The notes under the pieces were generated by a model, which saw only the letters and a program-made list of their open reading frames with translations, made no database searches and was not told where the DNA came from. The position numbers were made by a program, and so were the translations under genes. Source: a virus (lineage: Duplodnaviria; Heunggongvirae; Uroviricota; Caudoviricetes). From it: a DNA stretch of 28,792 bases. The stretch covers positions 1 to 28,792 of the IMG/VR virus record IMGVR_UViG_2778261570_000004. The stretch is one strand, 5' to 3'. Positions 727-27,393 of this stretch are shown here, piece by piece. The first letter of the stretch is position 1. Every line of letters starts with the position of its first letter.

Positions 727-747
727 ATATGTTAGAAAACTAATTTT
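727..747. promoter_or_regulatory. operator-like motif copy 1 (ATATGTTAGAAAACTAATTTT) overlapping promoter-like AT-rich region
   Basis: Member of a motif family recurring at least 9 times in the window; sits about 20 bp upstream of the 757 ORF. Confidence 0.5.
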
Positions 748-3216: not shown

Positions 3217-3292
3217 GATGGTGTAGCTCAGCGGTTAGAGCGGTTGACTGTTAATCAACGGGTCGATGGTTCAAATCCATCCACCATCGCCA
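3217..3292 (+). tRNA. tRNA-Asn (anticodon GTT)
   Basis: Manual cloverleaf: acceptor GATGGTG/CACCATC, D-arm GCTC..GAGC, anticodon loop CTGTTAA, T-arm GATGG-TTCAAAT-CCATC, encoded CCA. Confidence 0.85.
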
Positions 3293-3294
3293 AT

Positions 3295-3370
3295 GCCGGT
3301 TTAGCTCAGTTGGTAGAGCGCCTGCCTTGTAAGCAGGATGTCAGCGGTTCGAGTCCGTTAATCGGCACCA
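3295..3370 (+). tRNA. tRNA-Thr (anticodon TGT)
   Basis: Manual cloverleaf: acceptor GCCGGTT/AATCGGC (one G-U), anticodon stem CCTGC/GCAGG with loop CTTGTAA, T-loop TTCGAGT, encoded CCA. Confidence 0.85.
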
Positions 3371-4018: not shown

Positions 4019-4453
4019 ATGTTCGGTAAATTGTTCGGCAAGAAAGTCGCTTCTGCAAAAGTAGAGCTGAAAAAAGTTGAGAATCGCGATCTGATGGAGG
4101 CCATCATCGGTGGCTGTTTGTTGGTGTCTGCCGCTGATGGTGAAATCGAAAAAGAAGAAACAGCGAAACTTGATCAGCTTGTCCGCTCTAATCCGCGTCT
4201 TAGTCATTTTGGTAACGAAATTACTGCAACAATTACCCGCTTTACCGAGCAACTGGAAGCTGGCTTCCGTGTTGGTCGCATGAATATCCTTCGCGAAATT
4301 GAAGATATCAAAAACGATCCAAAAGAAGCGGAAGAAGTATTCGTTAACATGCTGACAATTGCAGAAGCGGACGGTGAAATCGAGCCAGCAGAACACAAAG
4401 TACTGGAAGAAGTAGGCCGTCGTTTAGGTCTTCGTGTGGAAGATTATCTGTAA
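4019..4453 (+). CDS. TerB-like protein (tellurite-resistance TerB family; resembles P1 TciA)
   Basis: Repeated ADGEIE...E motif (SAADGEIEKEE, AEADGEIEPAEH) typical of TerB; SD GAGGGA before ATG. Confidence 0.65.
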   Translation: MFGKLFGKKVASAKVELKKVENRDLMEAIIGGCLLVSAADGEIEKEETAKLDQLVRSNPRLSHFGNEITATITRFTEQLEAGFRVGRMNILREIEDIKNDPKEAEEVFVNMLTIAEADGEIEPAEHKVLEEVGRRLGLRVEDYL

Positions 4454-4727: not shown

Positions 4728-4803
4728 GGCCCTTTAGCTCAGTGGTTAGAGCTGGCGACTCATAATCGCACGGTCACCGGTTCAAGTCCGGTAGGGGCCA
4801 CCA
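4728..4803 (+). tRNA. tRNA with anticodon CAT, ileX-like (Ile2 if lysidine-modified, otherwise Met)
   Basis: Acceptor GGCCCTT/AGGGGCC, anticodon loop CTCATAA, T-arm CCGG-TTCAAGT-CCGG, encoded CCA; strongly resembles E. coli ileX as recalled. Confidence 0.85.
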
Positions 4804-5262: not shown

Positions 5263-5838
5263 ATGTTAACGGCGAACGATAACGCGTATGCAGAAGCAGA
5301 TCTCATATTCAGTGACTTCATCGGTCAGCGGGAACGCTGGACACAAAAGCGAGAGGAACTTTATGCCTCGTTAGTTCGCAAAGGTGTCAACATTGAAACC
5401 GCTCAAAGCGGCGATATGACGGTAGTCAGTGTTGGATTACATGGTGTGAGCGTGTCCGCAGCCAATCATGAGCCATACGTAGCGTTATCCGAGTCGATGG
5501 CAAGGCTAATTAAGTTTCTGAAGCAAACAGAAGCCAATAATGTTTTCATCGCCAAAAAGAACATCAATTTTTCTGCCGCCATGTTCTGGATGATGAAGGG
5601 GCTGGATGCCCGCCGGGCATCATGGCCTAAAGGGAGCTATTTATCGATGTTCCGTGGCAGCATTGGCAGCAAAGAAAAGCTCTTCGAATTCTTGCCGGAA
5701 GAGGCATTCGATATTGTGGAAGGGTGCGATGTGATGGTTATGCCTCGCCTGGTAATGATGAATGGGGATTTACAGGCGCAGACAGACTGGTTCGCAACTG
5801 GCGTGGATATTATCGCAACTGACTGGGAGGCATTCTGA
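5263..5838 (+). CDS. hypothetical protein with C-terminal DUF2829-like domain (191 aa)
   Basis: SD AAGGAG; C-terminal AAMFWMMKGLDARRASWPKGSYL...QTDWFATGVDIIATDWEAF resembles the DUF2829 pattern. Confidence 0.6.
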   Translation: MLTANDNAYAEADLIFSDFIGQRERWTQKREELYASLVRKGVNIETAQSGDMTVVSVGLHGVSVSAANHEPYVALSESMARLIKFLKQTEANNVFIAKKNINFSAAMFWMMKGLDARRASWPKGSYLSMFRGSIGSKEKLFEFLPEEAFDIVEGCDVMVMPRLVMMNGDLQAQTDWFATGVDIIATDWEAF

Positions 5839-6230: not shown

Positions 6231-6338
6231 TGTTAGATGAATGGAATTAATTTTCTAATATAACCAACTTTTTGCCAGTCTATACAGAAATAACATTCTC
6301 ATTATCATCCCCTCGGTCATTTCCTGCCCGGGGGATTA

Positions 6339-6731
6339 ATGGAGCATATCAGCAGCGCAGAAATTGCGGATATCATGATTAGGGCTGACTGCTATCTGAC
6401 AGTCACCGAAATTACCACTCTAGCTAAAGAAAAATATCCTCACCTTCATGTTTCACGCGTAAGTGTAACCAACATCATTCGGCATTTTGTGCGGTCAAGC
6501 CGAGCTATTTGTGAGCTTGATGATCGTGTTTACCCACGGAAATACTGGTTGCATGGCCTGAACGGATATCAGTTCAAGGTGCGCGGGCGCACCCCTGAAT
6601 ACGGCAGTTTGCTGGTTAAAAACTGTAGCCGGAAGTCTGCAGAACTGGCGCGACAAGAGCAGCGCAAGCTGGTGGACATGGCTAATAAGCTGTGGAATGC
6701 CGCAGTTAAAAAGCGTGGTGTTGCTTTATGA
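6339..6731 (+). CDS. hypothetical protein immediately upstream of terminase genes (130 aa)
   Basis: ORF; 4-nt overlap with terminase small subunit gene; position analogous to a late-gene activator in P1-type phages, not verified. Confidence 0.55.
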   Translation: MEHISSAEIADIMIRADCYLTVTEITTLAKEKYPHLHVSRVSVTNIIRHFVRSSRAICELDDRVYPRKYWLHGLNGYQFKVRGRTPEYGSLLVKNCSRKSAELARQEQRKLVDMANKLWNAAVKKRGVAL

Positions 6732-8092
6732 GCCTTGTTAATTGGGAAGAGCACCGCGCCAAATTTATAGCGTTGCGTGAAGAAAAAGGGATCACCGTAA
6801 AGGAATACTGCGAGCAACACGACCTTAGCTTCAATACCGCCAGAAAGCATCTCAATATGAAAAAAAATGAGGTGCGGTCGCAGGTGAAGACTACAAAAAA
6901 AAGCACCAAATCACCTGAAAAAAAACGGGCAGGAAGAGCAAAAAAAAGGCCAGAAGAGGGTACAGAAACAACAAAATTTACAGAAACTGACAATTCACAG
7001 AGCGGAAGTTCTTTCCGGAGCATGCCGAGAAAGAAAACTTCGGATCATAAAAATAACGACAATAATAACAATGAGATAAAAGAATCTGTCAGGAGATCAT
7101 TGCGCGAAAAAATGGCGAAAATGATCCCCACCGAAGATAAATGCGCCTCAAAAATCGAGGGATCTTCAGCAATGATCCCTGGCGGTGCTGTGCAGCGTGC
7201 CACGTTGCCCACTACGAGTGTGGCTCGCGACATGATGAAGAACGGCGCAGAAGAGCACCTGCGGTTAGCAATTCAAATGGCGCAAGAACGCGCACTTCAG
7301 TACCAAAGCATTGTTGATCAGGAGGCCGAACGCCTACAGGCGGAGATAGACGCCCTGGGTGATGAACAGCCAGAAGGAATGCACCCTGGGCAGCGACTTC
7401 TCGGTCTAATCAGTGACGCGGCCTACTACATGAACGATTTTATCAGTAGGTTGGCAGCGATATATCAGTCCGAACAAAAGCTGCGACAGGGTGATGAAAA
7501 ACTTCGTCAGGGTGCTCGCCAGCAAGCATTCAGAGAGGCCGAGGCCAGAGAAAAACTCGAATTAGCACGCCTACAGGCCGAACAGCGTGGCAAAGAGATT
7601 GAATATCGCATTGGCGCTGACGCACGCGCAGCCAGAGTTATCGCCGCCGCTATACGTATGCGTGAGCGCGAGGAGCTGGACGATATCGGTGTTGCTGAAT
7701 ACATCGAGCGTCAGGGTGTCAGTGTCCCGGCTATCCTCGCGGCGCGCGCGGCGAAAGCTATCACTCTTCTCGAACCTCCAGTTTCTGACATCAATGATGT
7801 TGATGATGAACAGCTGGACAAAGAAGCGAAGGAGTTTGCATCGCTTCAGGCTAACCATCCGCAATGGCTGGCAGAGCGCCGGGCGGATGTGGCAACCATT
7901 GTTGAAGATCTGGGGTGCGGAGATTACGACCACAATGGCGAGCGTAAGGCTGGGGAATTCGAGGCCAACGATGAAGAGTTGGACATTGACCCTTCGGCAA
8001 CGGCTGAAATTTACGGTGATTATGATGCATCAGATGCAGGGTATGACGCCGGAGATGATGATATTGCGATAGAACCGCCGGAGGATGACTAA
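6728..8092 (+). CDS. terminase small subunit-like protein (PacA-like)
   Basis: N-terminal HTH-like segment, Lys-rich linker, coiled coil, acidic C-terminal tail; TAATG-coupled to large subunit. Confidence 0.6.
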   Translation: MSLVNWEEHRAKFIALREEKGITVKEYCEQHDLSFNTARKHLNMKKNEVRSQVKTTKKSTKSPEKKRAGRAKKRPEEGTETTKFTETDNSQSGSSFRSMPRKKTSDHKNNDNNNNEIKESVRRSLREKMAKMIPTEDKCASKIEGSSAMIPGGAVQRATLPTTSVARDMMKNGAEEHLRLAIQMAQERALQYQSIVDQEAERLQAEIDALGDEQPEGMHPGQRLLGLISDAAYYMNDFISRLAAIYQSEQKLRQGDEKLRQGARQQAFREAEAREKLELARLQAEQRGKEIEYRIGADARAARVIAAAIRMREREELDDIGVAEYIERQGVSVPAILAARAAKAITLLEPPVSDINDVDDEQLDKEAKEFASLQANHPQWLAERRADVATIVEDLGCGDYDHNGERKAGEFEANDEELDIDPSATAEIYGDYDASDAGYDAGDDDIAIEPPEDD

Positions 8093-9600
8093 TGGCTGGT
8101 GGGCGCAAGATTAAATGCGTCACCAGCGATCCACGCTGGCGCGATATGGTAATCAAATACCGCTACAACTTTACCCAGGCTGTTGTTGATATATTCGGGA
8201 TGTTTCCCTCCCACCAGCAGCAGGAGATTATCCAGTCCGTACAGCAAAAAGGGAGCAGAACCACTGTTACCTCTGGTCACGGTACAGGGAAATCGTCGCT
8301 AACGGCTATGTTGTTGCTGATTTATTTGATTCTGTTCCCCGATGCCCGTGTCATCATTGTTGCTAACAAAATAGGTCAGGTTAAGACAGGTGTATTCAAA
8401 TACGTTAAACAGTATTGGGCGAATGCCGTTAAGCGTCATGGGTGGTTACAGACCTATTTTGTCCTGTCTGACACCATGTTTTATGAACGCTCTCGAAAGG
8501 GGATCTGGGAAGTTCTCTGCAAAGGCTATCGACTCGGTAACGAAGAAGCTCTGGCGGGGGAGCACGCGGCACATTTGCTTCTAATTCTGGATGAAGCATC
8601 AGGTATATCTGATAAAGCGATCGGCGTAATGACTGGCGCTCTGACTGAAGAAGATAACCGAATGTTGATGCTATCCCAGCCAACAAGGCCAAGTGGTTAT
8701 TTCTACGATTCGCACCATTCTCAAGCTAAAACCCCAGACAACCCGAAAGGGATCTGGACAGCAATTGTTCTTAACTCAGAAGAATCACCGTTCGTCACAC
8801 CACAATTCATCAGGCAGAAACTCCTGGAATATGGCGGGCGCGATTCTATTGAGTACATGGTCAAGGTTCTTGGTCAGTTTCCTCGGGAGATTAACGGCTA
8901 TTTGCTTGGTCGTGATGAATGCGATCGCGCTGCGCGGCGCAAGGTGTTGTTGGAGAAAAACTGGGGATGGGTGGCTACTGCTGACGTTGGTAACGGGCGA
9001 GACAAGTCAGTTCTTAATATCTGTAAAGTGTCTGGTCACCGGGAAAAGCGGCGTGTTGTTAACTTTAAGGTAATGGAAATGCCAGGGACTATGGACCCGC
9101 TGGCTTTTGCTGACTTTATATACAACGAATGCACGCCGGATAAATACCCGAATATTACAATCGCGGTTGACGCAGACGGTTTTGGTTCAGATACCTGTGC
9201 GCAGCTGGTGCGCCGTGGGGCTAATCCGGTACGGATTCGGTGGGGGAAACCCATGTTTTCGAACAAAGACAAGGAGCGTTTTGTTAACCAGCGTGCCTAC
9301 GCAAATATTATGGCTCGTGATGCCATAAAGTCAGGTCGTATGCGAATAGACAGCGACCCTAAAACGGCAGAGCAAGCGTCAAAAATCCCCTTTTTACTTA
9401 ATGAAGAAGGGAAGATGGCGATGATGCGCAAGGAGCACATGCGGCAAAAGCTGAACATCAAATCACCTGACCGATGGGATACCTACTGCTTTACAATGCT
9501 GGTGGACTATGTTCCTGCTAATGAAGATATCGGCGCTGAAATGGCTACCTTCCGCGATCAGGTTCTTGCAGATGTAGAAATGCCAGATCTGGATATTTGA
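8092..9600 (+). CDS. terminase large subunit (PacB-like)
   Basis: Walker A SGHGTGKSS, Walker B LLLILDEAS, C-terminal acidic nuclease-like segment ITIAVDADGFGSD. Confidence 0.8.
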   Translation: MAGGRKIKCVTSDPRWRDMVIKYRYNFTQAVVDIFGMFPSHQQQEIIQSVQQKGSRTTVTSGHGTGKSSLTAMLLLIYLILFPDARVIIVANKIGQVKTGVFKYVKQYWANAVKRHGWLQTYFVLSDTMFYERSRKGIWEVLCKGYRLGNEEALAGEHAAHLLLILDEASGISDKAIGVMTGALTEEDNRMLMLSQPTRPSGYFYDSHHSQAKTPDNPKGIWTAIVLNSEESPFVTPQFIRQKLLEYGGRDSIEYMVKVLGQFPREINGYLLGRDECDRAARRKVLLEKNWGWVATADVGNGRDKSVLNICKVSGHREKRRVVNFKVMEMPGTMDPLAFADFIYNECTPDKYPNITIAVDADGFGSDTCAQLVRRGANPVRIRWGKPMFSNKDKERFVNQRAYANIMARDAIKSGRMRIDSDPKTAEQASKIPFLLNEEGKMAMMRKEHMRQKLNIKSPDRWDTYCFTMLVDYVPANEDIGAEMATFRDQVLADVEMPDLDI

Positions 9601-10723: not shown

Positions 10724-10744
10724 TTAGTTTTCTAACATAAAATT
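10724..10744. promoter_or_regulatory. operator-like motif copy 4 (reverse orientation, TTTAGTTTTCTAACATAAAAT)
   Basis: Same motif family; directly upstream of the 345-aa gene. Confidence 0.45.
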
Positions 10745-10910: not shown

Positions 10911-10942
10911 TAACTTTAGATAATTGGCATTATTTAAAGTTA
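10911..10942. other. rox-like recombination site (TAACTTTAGATAAT-TGGC-ATTATTTAAAGTTA)
   Basis: 14-4-14 palindrome with one arm mismatch; matches the rox target of Dre as recalled at 31 of 32 positions; about 150 bp upstream of the recombinase gene. Confidence 0.8.
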
Positions 10943-11094
10943 GGCTATAATTATGGGTAGATGATCAGTATTGACATCACTGAAAATACGTGCCTCGAAT
11001 CAAAGGCTTGAATCTTGAAAATTAACTTATAGCTACCCTGTCATTTTTATATTTTTCGCGTAGCGTCATCTGTATATAGAGGTTAAATAGTTTC

Positions 11095-13519: not shown

Positions 13520-13960
13520 ATGAATAACATGGCAACGAAAGAGCTTTTTAAGTTCCGTCCCAAATACAAAGCTCACAAAAAAAATGGAACCACGGTCATC
13601 ATTACGGATGACAACGGCGTGATGATTAATCTTACCGGGAGCGTAACTATTTCTGCTGGTGGCATCACCACCCAGCAAGAAGAAATCGACCTTGAAGCAG
13701 CCGACTTTTCAGACGCGCTGATGTGGCTGAAGGAAGGCAAGAAAGTTGCTCGACGCGGGTGGAACGGCGAAAACCAATTCTGCTGGCTGGTTCCTGAAGG
13801 ACAGTACCCGGCACGAATGGAAGCCATTAAGGGATATTTCCCCGGCGACCTCGTTCCGTATGGTGCTTATTTCGCCTTAAAAAATGCACAAGGTGTAGTT
13901 GTTCCGTGGGTGCCTTCAGTTGGCGACCTGCTGGCCTGTGACTGGTTTGTTGTGGAGTGA
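13520..13960 (+). CDS. DUF2829-like protein (146 aa)
   Basis: C-terminal ALMWLKEGKKVARRGWNG...PWVPSVGDLLACDWFVVE matches the DUF2829 pattern as recalled. Confidence 0.6.
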   Translation: MNNMATKELFKFRPKYKAHKKNGTTVIITDDNGVMINLTGSVTISAGGITTQQEEIDLEAADFSDALMWLKEGKKVARRGWNGENQFCWLVPEGQYPARMEAIKGYFPGDLVPYGAYFALKNAQGVVVPWVPSVGDLLACDWFVVE

Positions 13961-13966
13961 TTTGAC

Positions 13967-14734
13967 ATGGAAAGCACTAAAACAATTCAATACCGCTTGC
14001 GTAATGGCCTGCTGGTGGCTGTTAACGCCGACATGTCACTGCCGTTTGACACGATTGAACGCACTATCATGACGTATCTCGGCTTTAATGAAGAGCTGAA
14101 TGAAGAGCATGGCGTAGCTATATGGAGTGATGCAGACAGCGGCGTTCGTCGTTACATCACCGCCAGGGGCAAAGACTACTCTCTGGAAGAACTGTTTGCC
14201 CTTGCGCAGTCTTTCGAATGTGTAGCATTAGACCTGTTTAATGATCCTGCTATAGCGCAACGACTTATACGCGAGCTTGGGCTATCCGTTACACCAATTA
14301 TATTTAAAAATGGCAGCCTGACTGGCACATGGCGCGTAGAACGCATCTCAAACTACCTTCCATATAACCGACAGTTAAATGGAGTAATCTCCGGCGTTAA
14401 CCAGCCCGTAGCGTGTGAAAATGTAAACCTGGTTGTCGCTGTTTTGGCAACCGCATGTCGTGTTATCGGTTTGGCTAAACAGGCATTTATTCATTTCCCA
14501 AATGGTGCAGAAGGTAGCGCAGAGATTATCGCGTGTGATTTCGAATTTACCTGGATGCTACGCGAATATCTGGACCAAACAGTATTCCGTGCCGAAGAAC
14601 TGGATATGTATATCACGTCAACGATTCCAGACGATGTGCGAGCTGAAGCAATCGCTACAGCCAGGGCGAAATGCCGTGCGGCGATTGCAGAACAGGCCAA
14701 AGAAGAAGTTAAGGAAGTGGCAGATGGCGACTAA
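13967..14734 (+). CDS. hypothetical protein (255 aa)
   Basis: ORF; SD-like AAGGAAG for the next gene lies in its 3' end. Confidence 0.55.
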   Translation: MESTKTIQYRLRNGLLVAVNADMSLPFDTIERTIMTYLGFNEELNEEHGVAIWSDADSGVRRYITARGKDYSLEELFALAQSFECVALDLFNDPAIAQRLIRELGLSVTPIIFKNGSLTGTWRVERISNYLPYNRQLNGVISGVNQPVACENVNLVVAVLATACRVIGLAKQAFIHFPNGAEGSAEIIACDFEFTWMLREYLDQTVFRAEELDMYITSTIPDDVRAEAIATARAKCRAAIAEQAKEEVKEVADGD

Positions 14735-15818
14735 GAGCAATATTTATAAAGATCCGCGCTGGCTGTCGCTGGTGGAGAAATATAAAGACAATTGGGTACT
14801 GGCAGCAAAAGAATTGTTTGATATTGATTTAAGCCACCAGCAACAACAAATTGTTGAAGCTATACAGCCCAATAATGCAAAAGCTACTGTCACCACTCCG
14901 TATGGGATCGGACGACCGCAAGTGCTTGCTGTTATTAGTACCCTTTATACGATTATGTATCCTGATTCCCGGACAGTAATTGTTTATCCAAAATCAAATG
15001 TTTGCAAAAGAGGAATTGTTGCATATGTGTGGCAATGTTGGGAGGCATTGCTGAAAAAACAACCTTTTATCATTGAGTATTTTAAGGTCGGTGATAGCGG
15101 TCTGATGTTCAATGAATTTTGGGGAATGTGCTTTTGTAACTTCCGCCTTAACTATGAAGATAGCATTGCAGGTCACTACGCCGACCATCTTTTATTCATT
15201 ATTGTGGATTCCGCACATATCAGCGATCGGGCATACAGCATTGTGTGGGCAAGCATGACTAGTGGTGATTCACGCATATTGCTCACTTCAATTCCGTCAC
15301 CAGAGGAAATAGGCTTTTTTTATGATTCACATCATGGACGTGCTTTAGCTGAAGATAATCCGAGTGGTGTATATAAAGCCATTAAGCTGAGTGCGGAGGA
15401 TTCACCATTTATTACCCAAGAATATCTTGATCATTTTGCCGAAAGGTATGGCGGGCGAAATAGTGATGACTATCGTCGTATGATTCTTGGTGAGTTCCCT
15501 GGTATTAGGGAGGCTGTTCTTGAATCAGATATGCCGAAGACAATGCGCTTTTCGATGCCTGATGGTAGTGAATGGACAATACCATTACGAGTGATAGCCC
15601 GGCATCATGCGCAGCACCACGCCAAAAAACATGGCGTCACGACATTAGAATGGTTGAAATCGCACACCATTCCACTCTTCACTGCAGATCACAATGCTAT
15701 CGTTGAGTGGGCAAAAACAATTCCGTGGGAGAATGTCGCTGAATACGCCCACATGCTAAAACCGCCGAAAGACAGGCAAGAAATTAGCTGGCTGACAGCA
15801 GAAAAAATCATTGAGTGA
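14724..15818 (+). CDS. terminase large subunit paralog with degenerate Walker A/B and no nuclease domain (364 aa; track ORF 14433 is an upstream frame extension)
   Basis: By-eye alignment to the 8092 protein: DPRW, SHQQQ, FFYDSHH, YGGR conserved; GHGTGKS becomes PYGIGRP, ILDEAS becomes IVDSAH; unrelated C-terminus. Confidence 0.65.
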   Translation: MATKSNIYKDPRWLSLVEKYKDNWVLAAKELFDIDLSHQQQQIVEAIQPNNAKATVTTPYGIGRPQVLAVISTLYTIMYPDSRTVIVYPKSNVCKRGIVAYVWQCWEALLKKQPFIIEYFKVGDSGLMFNEFWGMCFCNFRLNYEDSIAGHYADHLLFIIVDSAHISDRAYSIVWASMTSGDSRILLTSIPSPEEIGFFYDSHHGRALAEDNPSGVYKAIKLSAEDSPFITQEYLDHFAERYGGRNSDDYRRMILGEFPGIREAVLESDMPKTMRFSMPDGSEWTIPLRVIARHHAQHHAKKHGVTTLEWLKSHTIPLFTADHNAIVEWAKTIPWENVAEYAHMLKPPKDRQEISWLTAEKIIE

Positions 15819-15853
15819 TAGTAAGAAGCCCGCCTGGTTGAGCGGGCTTCTTT

Positions 15854-19151: not shown

Positions 19152-19850
19152 TCAGTCTCCTTTGATGCCAATGTTTACAGCCTGGCAAGCCTCTTTGAGC
19201 ACCCAGTCAACCGCGTCTTTCCATGCTCCGGTTTCGACTGGCGGATTCTCACGCTTAACCTGTTCATAAAAGCGCACGGCTTTAACCAGTCCTTCCGGTA
19301 CTACTGGTGATGGCTGTTTAGCTTCTAAATCAGCAATTCTGTCAACCACGGCATCTACGGCATCTGAAAAGCCGAACCAGTTACTCCACTCCGGCCTATC
19401 CCCGGTTGCTGCAAAGTACATATCAGCTAAAGCAGACTCAGCATGGTCACGCTCGTTAATGAGTTGCTCTTCGCTTTTCTCCAGTTCAGCAATACGCTTA
19501 CTTCCATCCGAGAGAACACCTTCGTAATACTCGCGCTGCTCGTTGAGTTTTGATTTTGTCTCCTCAAGCTCAACTCTCAGCTTCCCAACCGTAAGAGCAA
19601 TATCCTCGTTCTCCTGGTCGCGGCGTTTTATGTATTGCTGGTTTCTTTCCCGTTCATCCAGTAGTGCCAGCACGGTTTCTGGTCCGGCCAGAAATTTGAA
19701 GGCGTTGAGCGCATCAATATCCACACCGTAATCTTTAAGTTCCTGTTCGCTTATCAGATCATCATCAACTGGCAACATTAACAGGCGTTCCATTGCCGGA
19801 ATTGCACGTTCTGCCGCCTCACGCAGTGCCTGATAGTTAATTTTGGTCAT
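19152..19850 (-). CDS. Ead/Ea22-like coiled-coil protein, paralog 1
   Basis: N-terminal NYQALREAAERA motif as recalled for the Ead/Ea22 family. Confidence 0.6.
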   Translation of the reverse strand: MTKINYQALREAAERAIPAMERLLMLPVDDDLISEQELKDYGVDIDALNAFKFLAGPETVLALLDERERNQQYIKRRDQENEDIALTVGKLRVELEETKSKLNEQREYYEGVLSDGSKRIAELEKSEEQLINERDHAESALADMYFAATGDRPEWSNWFGFSDAVDAVVDRIADLEAKQPSPVVPEGLVKAVRFYEQVKRENPPVETGAWKDAVDWVLKEACQAVNIGIKGD

Positions 19851-19851
19851 A

Positions 19852-20151
19852 TCACATCACCCTGAAGCCGTTGCATTTACGTAAAAAATCGCAGATATAG
19901 CCCTTCATTTTTTCGTGCCAATCTCGATCATTCCCATTGCACCAACCATCAGGTGGAGTCCAGTTTTCTATCAGAGCAGCCATTTTCTTTGCTTTCGCCG
20001 GAGTAGCTGTTGCGGTATCGCAGTAATGACGAGTGTCAACCAACGTATCCATACCATCGATATCAAGTACGCAAAACCATGTGTGATTCGGCATTTCAAC
20101 AGATGGTATTTGTTGCCCGCGTCGACGTTTATCAATAAGACATACAGTCAC
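19852..20151 (-). CDS. hypothetical protein (99 aa)
   Basis: ORF, tightly packed in operon. Confidence 0.5.
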   Translation of the reverse strand: MTVCLIDKRRRGQQIPSVEMPNHTWFCVLDIDGMDTLVDTRHYCDTATATPAKAKKMAALIENWTPPDGWCNGNDRDWHEKMKGYICDFLRKCNGFRVM

Positions 20152-20828
20152 TGGTTGCCTCCTTTGCGAAGCTGGGCAGCAAAGTCAACTAACCACTCAG
20201 TCATTTCAACCTTCCCTACCAGGTCTGAACCAGGGTGCATACAGCAATCACTCTGCGCCGCTTTGAAATCCTTATACTCATATTCTTGGGCCACCAGATT
20301 TTTTGCAGCTTCTATAGCAGCATCCACCCCCTGCGCCCGAACTTCAGCCAGGAAAGCATCAGTGGTTGGCGTTTCAGGTATCTGTCTCCTCATCCGTTCT
20401 ATTGCATGATTGAACCCGAAGTCTTCCGCGAGAGATACGTCATCCATATTGTCATTGTCATCCTCAATATCCCGTGATTCTGGAATTGCAGACTTTATTC
20501 CCGCATTCTCCGCTGCCAGCGCCGCGCACTTGGCTTCAAGAGCGGCAACCACTTCCTGATGGTCTTTGTACTTAACGTATGAGCCGGAGATGTCATCACC
20601 TTCGGTGTTTAGCCATGCGTCATTGCAATTCACTGCGTAGGTTCTGATGCTGATGCTCTCCCGCCCCTGACAGACGCCAGGCCAGTCAATAAAGTATCCG
20701 CAATGCCTACCCTCAGACGTGCGCGCAGGATAAATGCCGTTATGACCCGGCAAAATATATGCTACCCATTCATCTTGCGTTGCCTGCTCCGCTGCCTCGC
20801 GCAACTCCTGATAGTTAGTTTCACTCAC
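20148..20828 (-). CDS. Ead/Ea22-like protein, paralog 2
   Basis: NYQELREAAEQATQDEW N-terminus; shares CAALAAENAG, TDAFLAEVRAQGV and AAQLRKGG segments with paralogs. Confidence 0.6.
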   Translation of the reverse strand: MSETNYQELREAAEQATQDEWVAYILPGHNGIYPARTSEGRHCGYFIDWPGVCQGRESISIRTYAVNCNDAWLNTEGDDISGSYVKYKDHQEVVAALEAKCAALAAENAGIKSAIPESRDIEDDNDNMDDVSLAEDFGFNHAIERMRRQIPETPTTDAFLAEVRAQGVDAAIEAAKNLVAQEYEYKDFKAAQSDCCMHPGSDLVGKVEMTEWLVDFAAQLRKGGNQ

Positions 20829-22146: not shown

Positions 22147-22187
22147 ATATGTTAGAAAACTAAAATCAATGTTCTAACGTAATTTTG
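22147..22187. promoter_or_regulatory. operator-like motif pair (ATATGTTAGAAAACTAAAAT plus ATGTTCTAACGTAATTTTG)
   Basis: Two motif copies, GTTAGAA and inverted TTCTAAC, in the intergenic gap inside the leftward operon. Confidence 0.45.
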
Positions 22188-23699: not shown

Positions 23700-23944
23700 T
23701 GTGGTGGCTCCTGCTTTTCTGCCTTCAATACCATGCGAGAACCATCATCCAGCTCCCAATTAATTTCACCGCCTTCTGCCATGACAAGATGCCAAACGAG
23801 TTGTGCGGCCTCGTTGGTTACATCGCGACCGCGATCATTGCCGACACGACGTTTTGTTCCATCCCCTAAGTCACGCATTTTTGCCAACACGATGGTTTTT
23901 GATAGCGGTGAAAAACCAAGCTGTAGTCGTGCTGAATTGCTCAC
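23696..23944 (-). CDS. hypothetical protein (82 aa)
   Basis: ORF, coupled. Confidence 0.45.
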   Translation of the reverse strand: MSNSARLQLGFSPLSKTIVLAKMRDLGDGTKRRVGNDRGRDVTNEAAQLVWHLVMAEGGEINWELDDGSRMVLKAEKQEPPQ

Positions 23945-24606
23945 TGTTTCCCTCCCTTGCGAAGCTGGGCGGCTAACTCGTCACATATGTGCGTCAAGGA
24001 GCAAAGTTTGATTGATGGATGTTCGCGCATCATCTCAACCCCCTGCGCCCGTACTTCAGCTAGGAAAGCGTCGGTGGCTGGCATATTTCCTGTTGCCTTC
24101 ATGGCCTCCAAAATAACCAGAACGCCATCTCTCCCAACCTCCTCACAGATAACCTCAGTGTTGTCGCCAACAACATCGCAGAATGCCTGAACTGCTTTAC
24201 GAGCCAGCTCATTCTCCGCCACCAGCGCCGCGCGATTACCCTCCAGCTCTGCAATGCGCTGTTTTGCGGTATCAAGTTCAATCGATAATTTTTCCAACTG
24301 CTCTTTATGCTTCTTATATTCCTGATATGCGTGCCAGGACTGACCTTTGCGCACACTATCAGTAATATCAGTAATCTGTTCTGGTGTTAGCGTAGTCAGT
24401 GGCTGTGCTGGGAAAATCAGCACTTTCCCGGAATCCCAATCAAAACCAGCGTGAATTGACTGAACCTCAACTGAGGGTGTTGAACCAATGCTGCCAGGCG
24501 AATGAACAACGATCGTTACATCCATATCGCGACGATGGCTGTGGTTGTTGGACAAAATACGATTCACCAACTCAGAAAATTTGGAGAATTTCATGCGGAG
24601 CCTCAA
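23941..24606 (-). CDS. protein with Ea22-like C-terminal module, paralog 3
   Basis: C-terminal TDAFLAEVRAQGV...AAQLRKGGKQ shared with the 20148 protein. Confidence 0.55.
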   Translation of the reverse strand: MRLRMKFSKFSELVNRILSNNHSHRRDMDVTIVVHSPGSIGSTPSVEVQSIHAGFDWDSGKVLIFPAQPLTTLTPEQITDITDSVRKGQSWHAYQEYKKHKEQLEKLSIELDTAKQRIAELEGNRAALVAENELARKAVQAFCDVVGDNTEVICEEVGRDGVLVILEAMKATGNMPATDAFLAEVRAQGVEMMREHPSIKLCSLTHICDELAAQLRKGGKQ

Positions 24607-25013
24607 TATGCAAAATAGACCGTTGCCACGCCGTTATAGTGATCAAACGATACGGCGTTTACTTCATAGCTGGCAGGGAGCTTCGAGCCGAGAACATATC
24701 CGGGCCACGTTTTCCATGGAATTTCTCTGCTCTCACTATCCCCATATACCGTACATCCAAGTGAACCTACAGCCTCGTCAGAACGTTTGCCGCATGTTAT
24801 GAAACCTATATTTTTCTTGCCGGTCTTAATGGCGATTGGGTGAACACTGGCTGATGCATTGGCAGCACGCTGTGACTGTTGGTTTGCGATATTCGCAGAG
24901 TTCGCAGCAGCTACAGCAGCCGTGGTCGCGGCGGTAGATGCCACAATAACTGCTGAAGCCTGCGCCTGTTGGGTAATGGTCAGCAATGCCGCCACAAAAA
25001 TCATCTTCTTCAC
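24603..25013 (-). CDS. secreted protein with signal peptide (136 aa)
   Basis: MKKMIFVAALLTITQQAQA signal-like N-terminus, Ala/Thr-rich linker. Confidence 0.55.
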   Translation of the reverse strand: MKKMIFVAALLTITQQAQASAVIVASTAATTAAVAAANSANIANQQSQRAANASASVHPIAIKTGKKNIGFITCGKRSDEAVGSLGCTVYGDSESREIPWKTWPGYVLGSKLPASYEVNAVSFDHYNGVATVYFAY

Positions 25014-25612
25014 TTGTCAGCTCCTTTGCGAATCTGTTCCGCCCATTCTTCAAGGGATTTCTCCGCATATTCACCGGACAGGCCATCAATCGGGTGCGGT
25101 TCATTAGCCAACTCTTCTTTCGCTGACAGAATCATGCGCGTAACGTCGAAAACTTCACGTAAAGACTTATTGATAAATCCGTGGTTGAAAGCAGCAGCAA
25201 GACGGCTGGCGGTATAGTTAATCCCCTCGTTGCGTGCTTCCGAACGAATTTCAGCAAGGCATTTGCGAAACTCGGAAACGTACTGTTCGACGCTCATTCC
25301 CCAGCTAAGTGGACATTCATTGAATGTTTCGCCTTCGTGCTCTTCATCAGGTAGCTCTTTGGTAAAGAACTCACGTTCAATGGCGTGGAGTGTGTCAGCA
25401 AAACGACGTAAGTTACTCAAACCTGTCGTAATGGAGAATTCAGGAGCATCACATCCGACGCCCATCTGCTGATAAACGGCGGTTTTGAAGGCCTTAAGCC
25501 CCGCATTCTCCGCCGCCAGCGCAGCACACGCTTTCTCAAGTCGGGAAATTTCCGTTACATACTCAGCGTTACGCTCTGCCAGTTGTGCGGGCGTTAAACC
25601 TTCAGACTTCAT
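25010..25612 (-). CDS. coiled-coil protein sharing Ea22-like segment, paralog 4
   Basis: CAALAAENAGLK segment shared with the 20148 protein. Confidence 0.55.
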   Translation of the reverse strand: MKSEGLTPAQLAERNAEYVTEISRLEKACAALAAENAGLKAFKTAVYQQMGVGCDAPEFSITTGLSNLRRFADTLHAIEREFFTKELPDEEHEGETFNECPLSWGMSVEQYVSEFRKCLAEIRSEARNEGINYTASRLAAAFNHGFINKSLREVFDVTRMILSAKEELANEPHPIDGLSGEYAEKSLEEWAEQIRKGADK

Positions 25613-26799: not shown

Positions 26800-27378
26800 A
26801 TGCAGAAACAGAGTTATTGGGAGAAACAGAGACAAAAAGCCATGCAAAAATTGGCTGACCCGGCCTGGCGAGAGGAACAAAGGGCAAAGCGCCTTCAACA
26901 AGCTCAACGCCAGCAGCAGCGAGCGAGAGAAAAGGCCGCATCGCCTGAATATCGGCAAAAGAAAAATGAAAAAGCAAAGCAATATGAACAGCGGAGAAAA
27001 GATAAAGCTGTATCCGCTCCGCCCAAAAAAACACGCACGTCACGCGGCCTGAAAGGCAGATCACTCACAGCCGATGAACGCCGGATACAGACCGCTATCG
27101 GTACTCTCCCCTGCATTGCCTGCCATATTCACGGGCAACATAGCCCAGTGGTATCCCTGCACCATATCTTCGGGAGAACGGCAGAGAACGCGCATAAATA
27201 TGTCCTCCCTTTGTGTAAATGGCACCACCAGTACGCAGCGCCAGCCGAGGTCCGAGAACAATATCCCTGGCTGGTCCCTGTTCATGCTGACGGAAAAATA
27301 GGCGGAAAAGCAGATTTCATGCGGCACAATGCCGATGAAATGACGTTGTATCAGATGGCGATTGAATTGATAAATTAG
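26800..27378 (+). CDS. ref: Ref-like protein (basic disordered N-terminus plus Cys/His-rich HNH-like C-terminal domain)
   Basis: N-terminal 85 aa rich in K/R/Q; C-terminal CIACHIHGQH...HHIFGR...CKWHHQ; operator-like motifs on both sides. Confidence 0.5.
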   Translation: MQKQSYWEKQRQKAMQKLADPAWREEQRAKRLQQAQRQQQRAREKAASPEYRQKKNEKAKQYEQRRKDKAVSAPPKKTRTSRGLKGRSLTADERRIQTAIGTLPCIACHIHGQHSPVVSLHHIFGRTAENAHKYVLPLCKWHHQYAAPAEVREQYPWLVPVHADGKIGGKADFMRHNADEMTLYQMAIELIN

Positions 27379-27393
27379 TTTTCTAACATTTTA
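27373..27393. promoter_or_regulatory. operator-like motif copy (reverse orientation)
   Basis: AAATTAGTTTTCTAACATTTT overlapping the stop of the Ref-like gene. Confidence 0.4.

What the first reader, a model, noticed from the sequence alone, without database searches (positions are those of the whole stretch)
14724..15818. Second terminase-large-subunit copy with degenerate ATPase motifs and no nuclease domain
The 364-aa protein aligns by eye with the N-terminal ATPase domain of the bona fide large terminase at 8092-9600 (DPRW, SHQQQ, FFYDSHH, EDSPF, YGGR blocks). The Walker A GHGTGKS is replaced by PYGIGRP (lysine and Ser/Thr lost) and Walker B ILDEAS by IVDSAH (glutamate lost). The C-terminal nuclease segment is replaced by an unrelated His-rich tail. 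A catalytically dead terminase paralog could act as a packaging decoy, an inhibitor of a competitor's packaging, or a scaffold; none of these is an annotated function I can recall for P1-type phages.
Basis: partly seen in the sequence, partly recalled or inferred. Interest (0 to 1): 0.8.

Follow-up and report, generated by a model that had tools for sequence, protein, structure and literature searches.

The report
Dead terminase-ATPase paralog in phage-plasmid
A P1/D6-type phage-plasmid carries, besides its real DNA-packaging enzyme, a conserved but catalytically dead copy of that enzyme's ATPase domain fused to a widespread small phage domain; the copy varies like a gene caught in a host–virus conflict, and its function is untested.

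Summary
ORF 14724-15818 (+, 364 aa) is a true paralog of the ATPase domain of the resident large terminase PacB (8092-9600): 37% identity over 258 aa, E 2e-61. Every catalytic residue that is invariant in 25 live PacB-type terminases is lost, both here and across a clade of related proteins. There is no nuclease domain.

It is not a pseudogene. dN/dS is about 0.1, and about 1,500 sequences in four clusters sit on P1- and D6-like phage-plasmids.

The "His-rich tail" is a folded domain of about 100 aa (AF2 pLDDT 85). At least 1,625 clusters of stand-alone homologs exist, usually encoded just after phage DnaB-type helicase genes. It has no Pfam family and no PDB match.

The ATPase-like domain is a swapped cassette. 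It is 52% identical between plasmids whose IsaA, PacB and C-domain are 97-98% identical.

The gene ends a cre-proximal operon and is translationally coupled to isaA. A Tad2-like anti-defence gene lies two genes upstream.

Function is untested. My best guess is a non-catalytic terminase mimic used in conflict, most likely a decoy for immune sensors that recognise terminase ATPase domains. Packaging interference is the main rival. Reference P1 and D6 lack the gene.

The parts
14724..15818 (+). Pseudo-terminase gene (364 aa): PacB-like dead ATPase domain plus C-terminal domain
   Evidence: ORF; BLASTP to PacB E 2e-61; phrog_5902 E 8.6e-165; dN/dS about 0.1.
14724..15506 (+). N-terminal pseudo-ATPase domain (residues 1-261). 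Walker A is TPYGIGRP and Walker B is IIVDSAH; the C-motif SQPTR is replaced by SIPSPE.
   Evidence: Catalytic positions are lost in 0-3 of 11 dead-clade representatives, while the positions for fold glycines and aromatics are kept.
14675..15473 (+). Hypervariable or exchanged cassette (essentially the whole ATPase-like domain) between conserved flanks
   Evidence: Nucleotide identity to plasmid CP057047 falls from 97-100% to 40-75% exactly in this interval. The N-domain is 52% identical at the amino-acid level (dS 1.4), against 98% for the C-domain (dS 0.1).
15507..15818 (+). C-terminal domain of about 100 aa (residues 262-364): beta-hairpin plus helices; family of stand-alone small phage proteins
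14711..14717 (+). Shine-Dalgarno-like AAGGAAG, 6 nt before the ATG, lying inside the end of isaA
   Evidence: Read directly from the sequence.
13967..14734 (+). isaA-like gene (255 aa, pI 4.7), overlapping the paralog start by 11 nt; the pairing is conserved in both P1-type and D6-type elements
   Evidence: phrog_2326, unknown function.
13520..13960 (+). Tad2-like (DUF2829) gene, two genes upstream in the same operon
   Evidence: PF11195, E 5.9e-23, 81.6 bits against a cut-off of 25.
15832..15847 (+). Weak terminator-like hairpin 14 nt after the stop codon
   Evidence: consensus scan only.
10924..10951 (+). Sigma-70-like promoter (TTGGCA-16-TATAAT) upstream of cre; candidate start of the cre-to-paralog operon
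   Evidence: 11 of 12 matches. The operon structure is inferred from the tightly packed same-strand ORFs between 11095 and 15818.
8092..9600 (+). Bona fide large terminase PacB (502 aa), the parent type of the paralog
   Evidence: It is 56.6% identical to P1 PacB, with Walker A, Walker B and C-motif intact.
6728..8092 (+). PacA (small terminase / pacase A subunit)
   Evidence: annotated 'DNA pacase A subunit' in near-identical plasmids.

Best explanation
Shown: the gene encodes a two-domain, non-catalytic protein.

- Residues 1-261 are an ancient duplicate of the PacB-type large-terminase ATPase domain. It keeps the fold-defining positions but has lost the P-loop lysine, the Walker B aspartate and catalytic glutamate, the C-motif Q/T/R and other invariant active-site residues. 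It therefore cannot bind and hydrolyse ATP the way a terminase does.
- It has no nuclease domain.
- Residues 262-364 are a separate small domain. This domain also occurs as a free protein of about 100 aa in the early replication or accessory regions of many phages.
- The gene is maintained by purifying selection. It is the last gene of a cre-proximal accessory operon, is translationally coupled to isaA, and is optional among P1/D6-like phage-plasmids.

Inferred: because catalysis is gone, the protein must act by binding. The ATPase-like domain is exchanged as a divergent cassette independently of the element's own PacA and PacB, and the gene sits in an operon with an anti-defence gene. From this I infer that it is a conflict gene. 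The mechanism I consider most likely is a terminase-ATPase mimic that occupies host immune sensors which recognise the terminase ATPase fold (Avs2- or Upx-type) without activating them. The nucleotide-loaded active site that such sensors read is missing. The C-domain would add a second contact or localisation function.
For: Homology to PacB: E 2e-61; phrog_5902; phrog_2 terminase E 9e-9.

Systematic loss of catalytic residues across 11 clade representatives against 25 live terminases: (Walker A K 0/11, Walker B D 2/11, E 1/11, C-motif Q and T 0/11). The clade is monophyletic in 94 of 100 NJ bootstraps.

Purifying selection: (for example Sd 21.5, Nd 9.5, omega 0.11).

Cassette exchange. N-domain 52% identical against IsaA 97.6%, PacB 97.8% and C-domain 98%.

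Independence from PacA. Two plasmids share an identical N-domain allele, yet their PacAs are 93% and 75% identical to the window's.

Optional accessory status:
- Absent from D6 and reference P1.
- 163 of 790 matching plasmid records carry a full-length copy, against 457 with IsaA.
- Found only on plasmids in 5,426 E. coli genomes.

Anti-defence neighbourhood: Tad2-like gene at 13520-13960. In P1-type elements the gene lies next to the dar/ddr anti-restriction operon.

Literature (bioRxiv 10.64898/2026.04.30.721860, read): EcAvs2 and Upx are activated by the terminase ATPase domain alone. EcAvs2 contacts the terminase-bound ATP through a bridging ATP. Phage-encoded ATPase-like proteins (T4 vs.8, Ksap1/2) bind the same pocket, and the authors suspect they are anti-defence proteins.
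Against: - No experiment or interaction prediction links this protein to any immune sensor.
- A mimic could just as well trigger such sensors as block them; vs.8 and Ksap1/2 are activators.
- PADLOC gave no hit, and no library of anti-defence proteins was available to scan.
- Other dead-clade members have different upstream neighbours (a Ref-like nuclease, a radical SAM protein, small ORFs), so the Tad2 neighbour is not universal.
- The C-domain's usual context is replication or recombination modules, which the decoy idea does not explain.
- Timing and level of expression are unknown.
- Divergent alleles could reflect recombination among lineages without diversifying selection.
Confidence: 0.3

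Rival explanations
1. Packaging interference against competing phages. The dead ATPase domain binds the small terminase, the portal or the large-terminase ring of a superinfecting P1-like phage. It thereby poisons that phage's packaging motor and acts as a superinfection-exclusion or inter-element competition factor.
For: - The domain derives from PacB and keeps PacB-specific surface blocks (FYDSHH, NPxG, E[DE]SP, YGGR).
- The allele varies independently of the resident PacA and PacB, as expected if the target is foreign.
- The gene is accessory and lies next to the phd-doc addiction module.
- General knowledge: single inactive subunits can poison ring ATPase packaging motors, and satellites encode proteins that bind phage TerS (for example SaPI Ppi).
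Against: - All alleles are only 33-38% identical to every PacB type compared, so none looks like a close mimic of a particular competitor.
- The risk of poisoning the element's own PacB is not obviously avoided.
- The N-domain is acidic (pI 5.7) while the PacB N-domain is basic (pI 9.3), which suggests changed surfaces.
- There are no experimental data.
Confidence: 0.2
2. Replication or recombination accessory factor. The C-domain docks on helicase, SSB or recombination machinery, and the dead translocase-like domain serves as a DNA- or protein-binding adaptor, for example coupling concatemer formation to packaging.
For: - Stand-alone C-domain genes lie directly after DnaB-type helicase genes in Cronobacter phage JK004, a Salmonella 89-kb plasmid and lambdoid prophages.
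- In Xanthomonas phages the C-domain is fused to a DUF1351 protein upstream of recombinase, exonuclease and SSB genes.
- The P1-type homolog lies downstream of ssb.
Against: - Many clade members lack the C-domain entirely (about 260-aa proteins, and variant P0007 at the same locus), so the core function lies in the N-domain.
- Cassette-like allelic diversity is unusual for a housekeeping replication factor.
- The gene is dispensable in P1 and D6.
Confidence: 0.15
3. Regulator or buffer of the element's own terminase. It would sequester PacA or PacB to prevent premature or leaky pac cleavage of the plasmid prophage.
For: - It is paralogous to PacB.
- It is likely transcribed from the cre operon rather than the late operon, so it could be present before or without late gene expression.
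Against: - The N-domain allele does not co-vary with the resident PacA or PacB.
- It is absent from fully functional P1 and D6.
Confidence: 0.1
4. Prophage-encoded defence sensor. The terminase-like domain recognises a component of an invading phage and, together with IsaA or another partner, aborts the infection.
For: - Hot-spot location next to a toxin-antitoxin module.
- Variable 'specificity' domain.
- Conserved pairing with isaA in two element types and two genomic locations.
Against: - No PADLOC hit for either protein.
- No recognisable effector domain in IsaA.
- Other clade members have unrelated neighbours.
Confidence: 0.1
5. A decaying, functionless remnant of a duplicated terminase gene.
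For: Catalytic motifs are destroyed and the nuclease domain is absent.
Against: - The reading frame is intact in all copies examined.
- dN/dS is about 0.1 within alleles and about 0.25 between alleles.
- Hundreds of members fall in several clusters.
- The clade is conserved and spread over diverse elements.
Confidence: 0.02

Closest known systems
PacB, the P1-type large terminase (window 8092-9600; P1 gp110)
   Same: The N-terminal 260 aa are homologous (37% identity, E 2e-61). Shared features are the Q-motif, the glycines of the P-loop, the AG motif, and the FYDSHH, NPxG, E[DE]SP and YGGR blocks.
   Different: Walker A lysine, Walker B aspartate and glutamate, and C-motif Q/T/R are all lost. 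There is no RNase-H-like nuclease domain. It is not next to pacA and not in the late operon. It has an acidic rather than basic N-domain.
T4 vs.8 (stand-alone paralog of the T4 terminase ATPase domain; bioRxiv 10.64898/2026.04.30.721860)
   Same: A lineage-restricted extra copy of the phage's own terminase ATPase domain, without a nuclease domain and of unknown function. It is discussed there as a possible anti-defence protein.
   Different: vs.8 keeps its Walker A and B motifs and activates EcAvs2, whereas this family has lost them. No sequence similarity was detected (no T4 hit). vs.8 has no added C-terminal domain.
Ksap1/Ksap2 (terminase-ATPase-like fold proteins that trigger KpAvs2; PMC11564622 and the preprint above)
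   Same: Small, phage-lineage-specific proteins with a terminase-ATPase-like core that fit the sensor pocket.
   Different: They are not recognisable paralogs by sequence. They are known as triggers, not inhibitors. Their hosts and phages differ.
Satellite packaging-interference proteins (e.g. SaPI Ppi), recalled from general knowledge
   Same: An accessory protein that acts by binding the packaging machinery rather than by catalysis (a 'works like' comparison for the rival explanation).
   Different: There is no homology. Ppi is a small protein unrelated to terminases. No interaction has been tested here.
phrog_5902 and database entries such as WP_000201931.1 ('hypothetical protein') and AXF39147.1 ('terminase large subunit')
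   Same: The window protein is a full-length member (E 8.6e-165). Identical or near-identical proteins are already deposited.
   Different: These entries carry no functional characterisation. The 'terminase large subunit' label on some of them is misleading, given the missing catalytic residues and nuclease domain.
Stand-alone C-domain proteins (e.g. Cronobacter phage JK004 gene 35, QVJ82392.1; P0254)
   Same: Homologous to residues 262-364 (31-41% identity). The conserved motif is MPDGS.W.VP...IA..RA...T.PLF....I.DWA.NNMNW.DV.
   Different: They are free proteins of about 100 aa, typically encoded after DnaB-type helicase genes. Here the domain is fused to the dead ATPase domain.

Membership tests
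Large terminase subunit (TerL/PacB) | N-terminal ASCE ATPase domain homologous to terminase ATPases | tested here: met
   BLASTP to PacB E 2e-61; phrog_2 'terminase large subunit' E 9.4e-9. No Pfam terminase family reaches threshold.
Large terminase subunit (TerL/PacB) | Walker A P-loop with catalytic lysine followed by Ser/Thr | tested here: not met
   TPYGIGRPQ in place of SGHGTGKSS. The lysine position is R/Q/H/E/M/C/T/I across the clade, 0 of 11 conserved.
Large terminase subunit (TerL/PacB) | Walker B aspartate plus catalytic glutamate | tested here: not met
   IIVDSAH in place of LILDEASG. Aspartate is kept in 2 of 11 and glutamate in 1 of 11 clade representatives.
Large terminase subunit (TerL/PacB) | C-terminal RNase-H-like nuclease domain | tested here: not met
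   The protein ends at residue 364. The C-domain profile against the PacB nuclease region gives hhalign probability 0.25%. The AF2 model is a small hairpin-plus-helices domain.
Large terminase subunit (TerL/PacB) | Encoded with the small terminase gene in the late packaging operon | tested here: not met
   The real pacA-pacB pair is at 6728-9600, downstream of lpa. The paralog is the last gene of the cre-dut-tad2-isaA cluster.
Dead PacB-ATPase-domain clade (phrog_5902-related; P0004-8, P0012, P0015-18, P0050, P0153) | Groups with other catalytically degenerate PacB-like N-domains to the exclusion of live terminases | tested here: met
   NJ tree and 94 of 100 bootstraps. Shared TTPxGxG and SxPS motifs. 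Caveat: a distance method was used, so long-branch attraction is not excluded.
Dead PacB-ATPase-domain clade | Co-occurs with an intact PacB-type terminase in the same element | tested here: met
   In the window: 8092-9600 alongside 14724-15818. In contig L015: a live PacB homolog (61% identity) and a dead paralog. Plasmids show two matching places per record.
T4 vs.8-like terminase-ATPase paralogs | Stand-alone ATPase-domain paralog that retains Walker A and B motifs | tested here: not met
   The motifs are lost, and no sequence match to T4 was found in the phage collection.
Anti-defence protein / immune-sensor decoy | Binds and neutralises a defined defence system | not testable with these tools
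   Only context is available: a Tad2-like gene two genes upstream and literature on ATPase-domain sensing.
Known anti-phage defence systems (PADLOC-DB v2) | Match to a model of a known or candidate defence protein | tested here: not met
   No hits for the paralog or IsaA at E up to 1.

The most novel reading that the evidence does not exclude
P1/D6-type phage-plasmids carry a family of pseudo-terminases that mimic the terminase ATPase domain. Their nucleotide site is deliberately ablated so that they bind terminase-sensing immune receptors (Avs1-3 or Upx type) without activating them. The exchangeable N-domain alleles would track different host sensors. This would be the first anti-defence strategy based on a dead copy of a conserved viral 'pattern' protein.
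Probability: 0.2. Interest if true: 0.85.

Novelty: new variant of a known kind. Interest (0 to 1): 0.62.

Why it matters
The large terminase is the most conserved protein of tailed phages and a major target of bacterial pattern-recognition immunity. Extra copies of its ATPase domain have only just been noticed (T4 vs.8), and their role is an open question.

This finding adds three things:
- A whole clade of such copies that are demonstrably non-catalytic, under selection, and modular (bare, or fused to at least two different C-terminal domains).
- Allelic exchange of the copy inside otherwise near-identical phage-plasmids.
- An uncharacterised phage domain of about 100 aa with thousands of homologs.

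The family gives a concrete, clonable reagent for two tests: whether phages use dead mimics of their own conserved proteins against immune sensors, and whether they use them against each other's packaging motors. It also corrects a database annotation ('terminase large subunit') that could mislead phage-typing pipelines which rely on terminase genes.

Tried and rejected
- **Single-sequence AlphaFold2 of the full protein:** the model was useless (pLDDT 39).
- **Full-length MSA mixing N-domain-only and C-domain-only homologs (A4):** MAFFT spread the C-domain proteins over the whole query, so I did not use it. The last structure job went to the C-domain alone.
- **afdb50 fold library:** unavailable.
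- **PADLOC:** no hits.
- **Pfam and NCBIfam on the paralog:** only sub-threshold noise.
- **IsaA against the Ref-like nuclease that precedes a related dead paralog:** unrelated.
- **P1 C1-operator consensus and P1 late-promoter -22 box in the window:** no operator match, and late-box matches below chance. The regulation of the operon is therefore unresolved.
- **Literature searches for a dead or paralogous terminase in P1/D6-like elements:** nothing. One paper only notes 'orfs of unknown function' replacing isaB (PMC6906374).
- **The longer 461-aa ORF from TTG 14433:** rejected. It overlaps isaA out of frame, lacks a ribosome-binding site and disagrees with its homologs.
- **PdcB (recalled from memory as a possible PacB paralog):** it is a DUF968/HNH-annotated protein unrelated to this gene.
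Full report
**What is there.** The window is part of a D6-like member of the P1 group of phage-plasmids from Enterobacteriaceae. Large parts match phage D6 and many roughly 90-kb E. coli and Salmonella plasmids. The gene order is tRNAs, tciA-like, a Tad2-like gene, lpa, pacA, pacB, c1-like, cre, two small ORFs, dut, a second Tad2-like gene, isaA, the gene in question, then doc/phd, humD and hot on the opposite strand.

The ORF at 14724-15818 (+) encodes 364 aa. An AAGGAAG ribosome-binding site lies 6 nt upstream of the ATG, and the ATG lies inside the last codons of isaA, an 11-nt overlap that implies translational coupling. RefSeq plasmids annotate the same start.

**Check of the observation.** BLASTP of the 364-aa protein against the window's PacB (8092-9600) gives 37% identity and 62% similarity over 258 residues, E 2e-61. 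It covers paralog residues 7-259 and PacB residues 10-264, which is exactly the ATPase domain.

Nothing C-terminal of residue 259 resembles PacB. A 124-sequence profile of the C-terminal domain against the PacB nuclease region gives hhalign probability 0.25%.

**The degeneration is systematic, not a one-off.** An exhaustive HMMER search of 1.8 billion representative proteins found 793 relatives. Most are full-length terminases with SGHGTGK[ST], [IV]DEASG and SQPTR motifs. About twenty lack these motifs.

I compared 25 live PacB-type terminases with 11 representatives of the degenerate group, position by position. Every catalytic position that is invariant in the live set is lost in the degenerate set:

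| Position | Retained in degenerate set |
|---|---|
| Walker A serine | 0/11 |
| Walker A glycine | 2/11 |
| Walker A lysine | 0/11 (R, Q, H, E, M, C, T, I) |
| 'AGEH' histidine | 0/11 |
| Walker B aspartate | 2/11 |
| Catalytic glutamate | 1/11 |
| C-motif Gln | 0/11 |
| C-motif Thr | 0/11 |
| C-motif Arg | 3/11 |

Structural positions are retained in 9-11 of 11: the Q-motif glutamine, two P-loop glycines, the AG motif, F204, G202 and F263. No substitute lysine or acid is conserved elsewhere, so a 'non-canonical P-loop' rescue is not supported.

The degenerate proteins form one clade in an NJ tree, and that clade is recovered in 94 of 100 bootstraps. A second, independent small pair also exists (P0045/P0114). 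The caveat is that this is a distance method, so long-branch attraction is not excluded. The shared derived motifs (TTPxGxG, SxPS) point the same way.

**It is a functional gene.** The protein collection holds clusters of 392, 122, 100 and 851 member sequences for four sequence types. A full-length copy is present in 163 plasmid records. In 5,426 complete E. coli genomes this allele is found only on plasmids.

Nei-Gojobori estimates within the window's allele group give omega of about 0.1 (for example 21.5 synonymous against 9.5 non-synonymous differences). Between allele groups omega is about 0.25, with dS saturated. All copies examined have intact frames.

**Domain architecture.** Many clade members are only about 260 aa and end just after the ATPase-like domain (P0012, P0015, P0016, P0018). 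One (P0017, 444 aa) has a different C-terminal extension. One D6-like element has an N-domain-only variant at the same locus (P0007). The N-domain is therefore the core unit.

The window protein's residues 262-364 are a separate domain.
- **Abundance.** It matches stand-alone proteins of about 100 aa. A profile search returned at least 1,625 clusters among only 8,000 scored candidates.
- **No family assignment.** None of these has a Pfam family.
- **Predicted fold.** AlphaFold2 with a 124-sequence alignment gave a confident model (pLDDT 85, pTM 0.72) of a beta-hairpin followed by helices.
- **Stand-alone contexts.** Stand-alone members are encoded right after DnaB-type helicase genes in Cronobacter phage JK004 and a Salmonella 89-kb plasmid, and between dnaB and ninB in lambdoid prophages.
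- **Fused context.** In Xanthomonas phages the domain is fused to a DUF1351 protein upstream of recombinase, exonuclease and SSB genes.

**Genomic behaviour.** The gene is optional. Phage D6 has pdcA at this position. Reference P1 has IS1 plus isaB where P1-type relatives such as MH422554 carry isaA followed by a 51%-identical homolog, between ssb and the hxr-ddrB-ddrA-darA operon. The isaA-paralog pair thus occurs in two different genomic neighbourhoods. IsaA is nevertheless more widespread (457 plasmid records) and can occur alone.

The comparison with plasmid CP057047 is the most telling result. Nucleotide identity is 97-100% through isaA. It drops to 40-75% exactly across 14675-15473, which is the ATPase-like domain. 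It returns to 97-100% for the C-domain, doc and phd.

| Protein or domain | Identity, window vs CP057047 |
|---|---|
| Paralog N-domain | 52% (dS 1.4) |
| Paralog C-domain | 98% (dS 0.1) |
| IsaA | 97.6% |
| PacB | 97.8% |
| PacA | 93% |

A third plasmid, CP104667, has the same N-domain allele as CP057047, but its PacA is only 75% identical to the window's. At least four N-domain alleles circulate in D6-like backbones whose PacBs are 92-98% identical.

The pseudo-ATPase domain is therefore exchanged as a cassette, independently of the element's own packaging proteins. None of the alleles is more than 38% identical to any PacB type.

**Context.** The gene two positions upstream (13520-13960) carries a Tad2-like (Thoeris anti-defence 2, formerly DUF2829) domain, at 81.6 bits against a cut-off of 25. 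The ORFs from cre (11095) to the paralog are tightly packed on one strand. A good sigma-70-like promoter lies upstream of cre, and a weak terminator-like hairpin follows the paralog.

Other members of the dead clade also sit in accessory or early regions of phage-plasmid-like contigs:
- after a Ref-like RecA-dependent nuclease, with a 4-nt overlap;
- after a radical-SAM gene;
- among DUF551/Ead genes near hot and umuC;
- near parM, 2.5 kb from a pacA/pacB pair whose PacB is intact.

**Mechanism.** The points above are shown. The following are inferred. A protein that keeps a terminase ATPase fold but none of its catalytic residues must work by binding. Optional distribution, hot-spot location, cassette-like allelic diversity decoupled from the resident PacA/PacB, and an anti-defence neighbour are together the signature of a conflict gene.

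A recent preprint (10.64898/2026.04.30.721860) reports the following:
- The E. coli and Salmonella immune sensors Avs2 and Upx are activated by the terminase ATPase domain alone.
- EcAvs2 reads the terminase-bound ATP through a bridging ATP.
- Other phage proteins with a terminase-ATPase-like core (T4 vs.8, which keeps its Walker motifs, and Ksap1/2) occupy the same pocket, and the authors suspect them of being anti-defence proteins.

A nucleotide-site-ablated mimic is a plausible non-activating competitor for such sensors. I rank this first, at about 0.3.

It is weakened by the low identity of every allele to every PacB. A replication/recombination adaptor role, suggested by the C-domain's contexts (about 0.15), self-regulation of PacAB (about 0.1) and a prophage-encoded defence sensor (about 0.1) remain open. 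Decay as a pseudogene is contradicted.

**Comparison with what is known.** The protein is not a terminase. Four of five defining features were tested and not met, even though some database records label homologs 'terminase large subunit'. It is a full-length member of phrog_5902, whose function is unknown.

The closest described analog is T4 vs.8. It is also a stand-alone terminase-ATPase paralog, but it is catalytically intact, is unrelated at the sequence level detectable here and is unfused. I found no paper that describes this family. I therefore rate it a new variant of a known kind, and moderately to highly interesting because it is directly testable.

Noticed in passing
window 727-743, 1977-1993, 6247-6263, 10724-10740, 22147-22163, 27375-27391: A 17-bp motif ATATGTTAGAAAACTAA occurs six times (0.07 expected by chance). 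All sites lie between genes, including just upstream of the c1-like repressor gene. It is probably the operator of the D6-type C1 repressor, the counterpart of P1's dispersed 17-bp operators. The P1 operator consensus itself has no match.
   Followed up: partly
window 13520-13960 and 5263-5838: Two genes with Thoeris anti-defence 2-like (PF11195, formerly DUF2829) domains. One is in the operon that ends with the pseudo-terminase (E 6e-23). The other is upstream of lpa (E 1.4e-9).
   Followed up: partly
window 15776-15818 (the last ~40 bp of the gene) versus other E. coli plasmids: Many D6/P1-like plasmids that lack the gene still match only its last 37-43 bp at 100% identity. This looks like a deletion scar and suggests repeated loss of the gene rather than repeated gain.
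   Followed up: no
L009:5336-6792 (84-kb metagenomic phage-plasmid-like contig): A related dead ATPase-domain protein (P0015, 263 aa) overlaps by 4 nt the end of a Ref-like RecA-dependent nuclease gene (PF16786). The same contig has a distant IsaA homolog (25% identity) 3 kb upstream.
   Followed up: partly
window 20148-20828, 23941-24606, 25010-25612 (all on the - strand): Three ORFs share repeated sequence blocks at their 3' ends and internally (repeat families D2-D4). One of them (20148-20828) and the neighbouring ORF 19152-19850 are Ead/Ea22-like. This is a small paralogous gene family in the early region.
   Followed up: no
window 3217-3292, 3295-3370, 4728-4803: Three tRNA genes (Asn-GTT, Thr-TGT, Met/Ile-CAT) flank a TerB/TciA-like gene (4019-4453). 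They are surrounded by repeats spaced about 200-215 bp apart.
   Followed up: no
L003:4995-6089 (MH422554) and P0002: Database records annotate homologs of the dead paralog as 'terminase large subunit'. This is likely a propagated mis-annotation.
   Followed up: yes
window 14724-15506 versus 8092-8895: Charge reversal: the paralog's ATPase-like domain is acidic (pI 5.7, net charge -6), while the PacB ATPase domain is basic (pI 9.3, net charge +7). Across the clade the trend holds only on average (median -4.0 against +2.4).
   Followed up: partly
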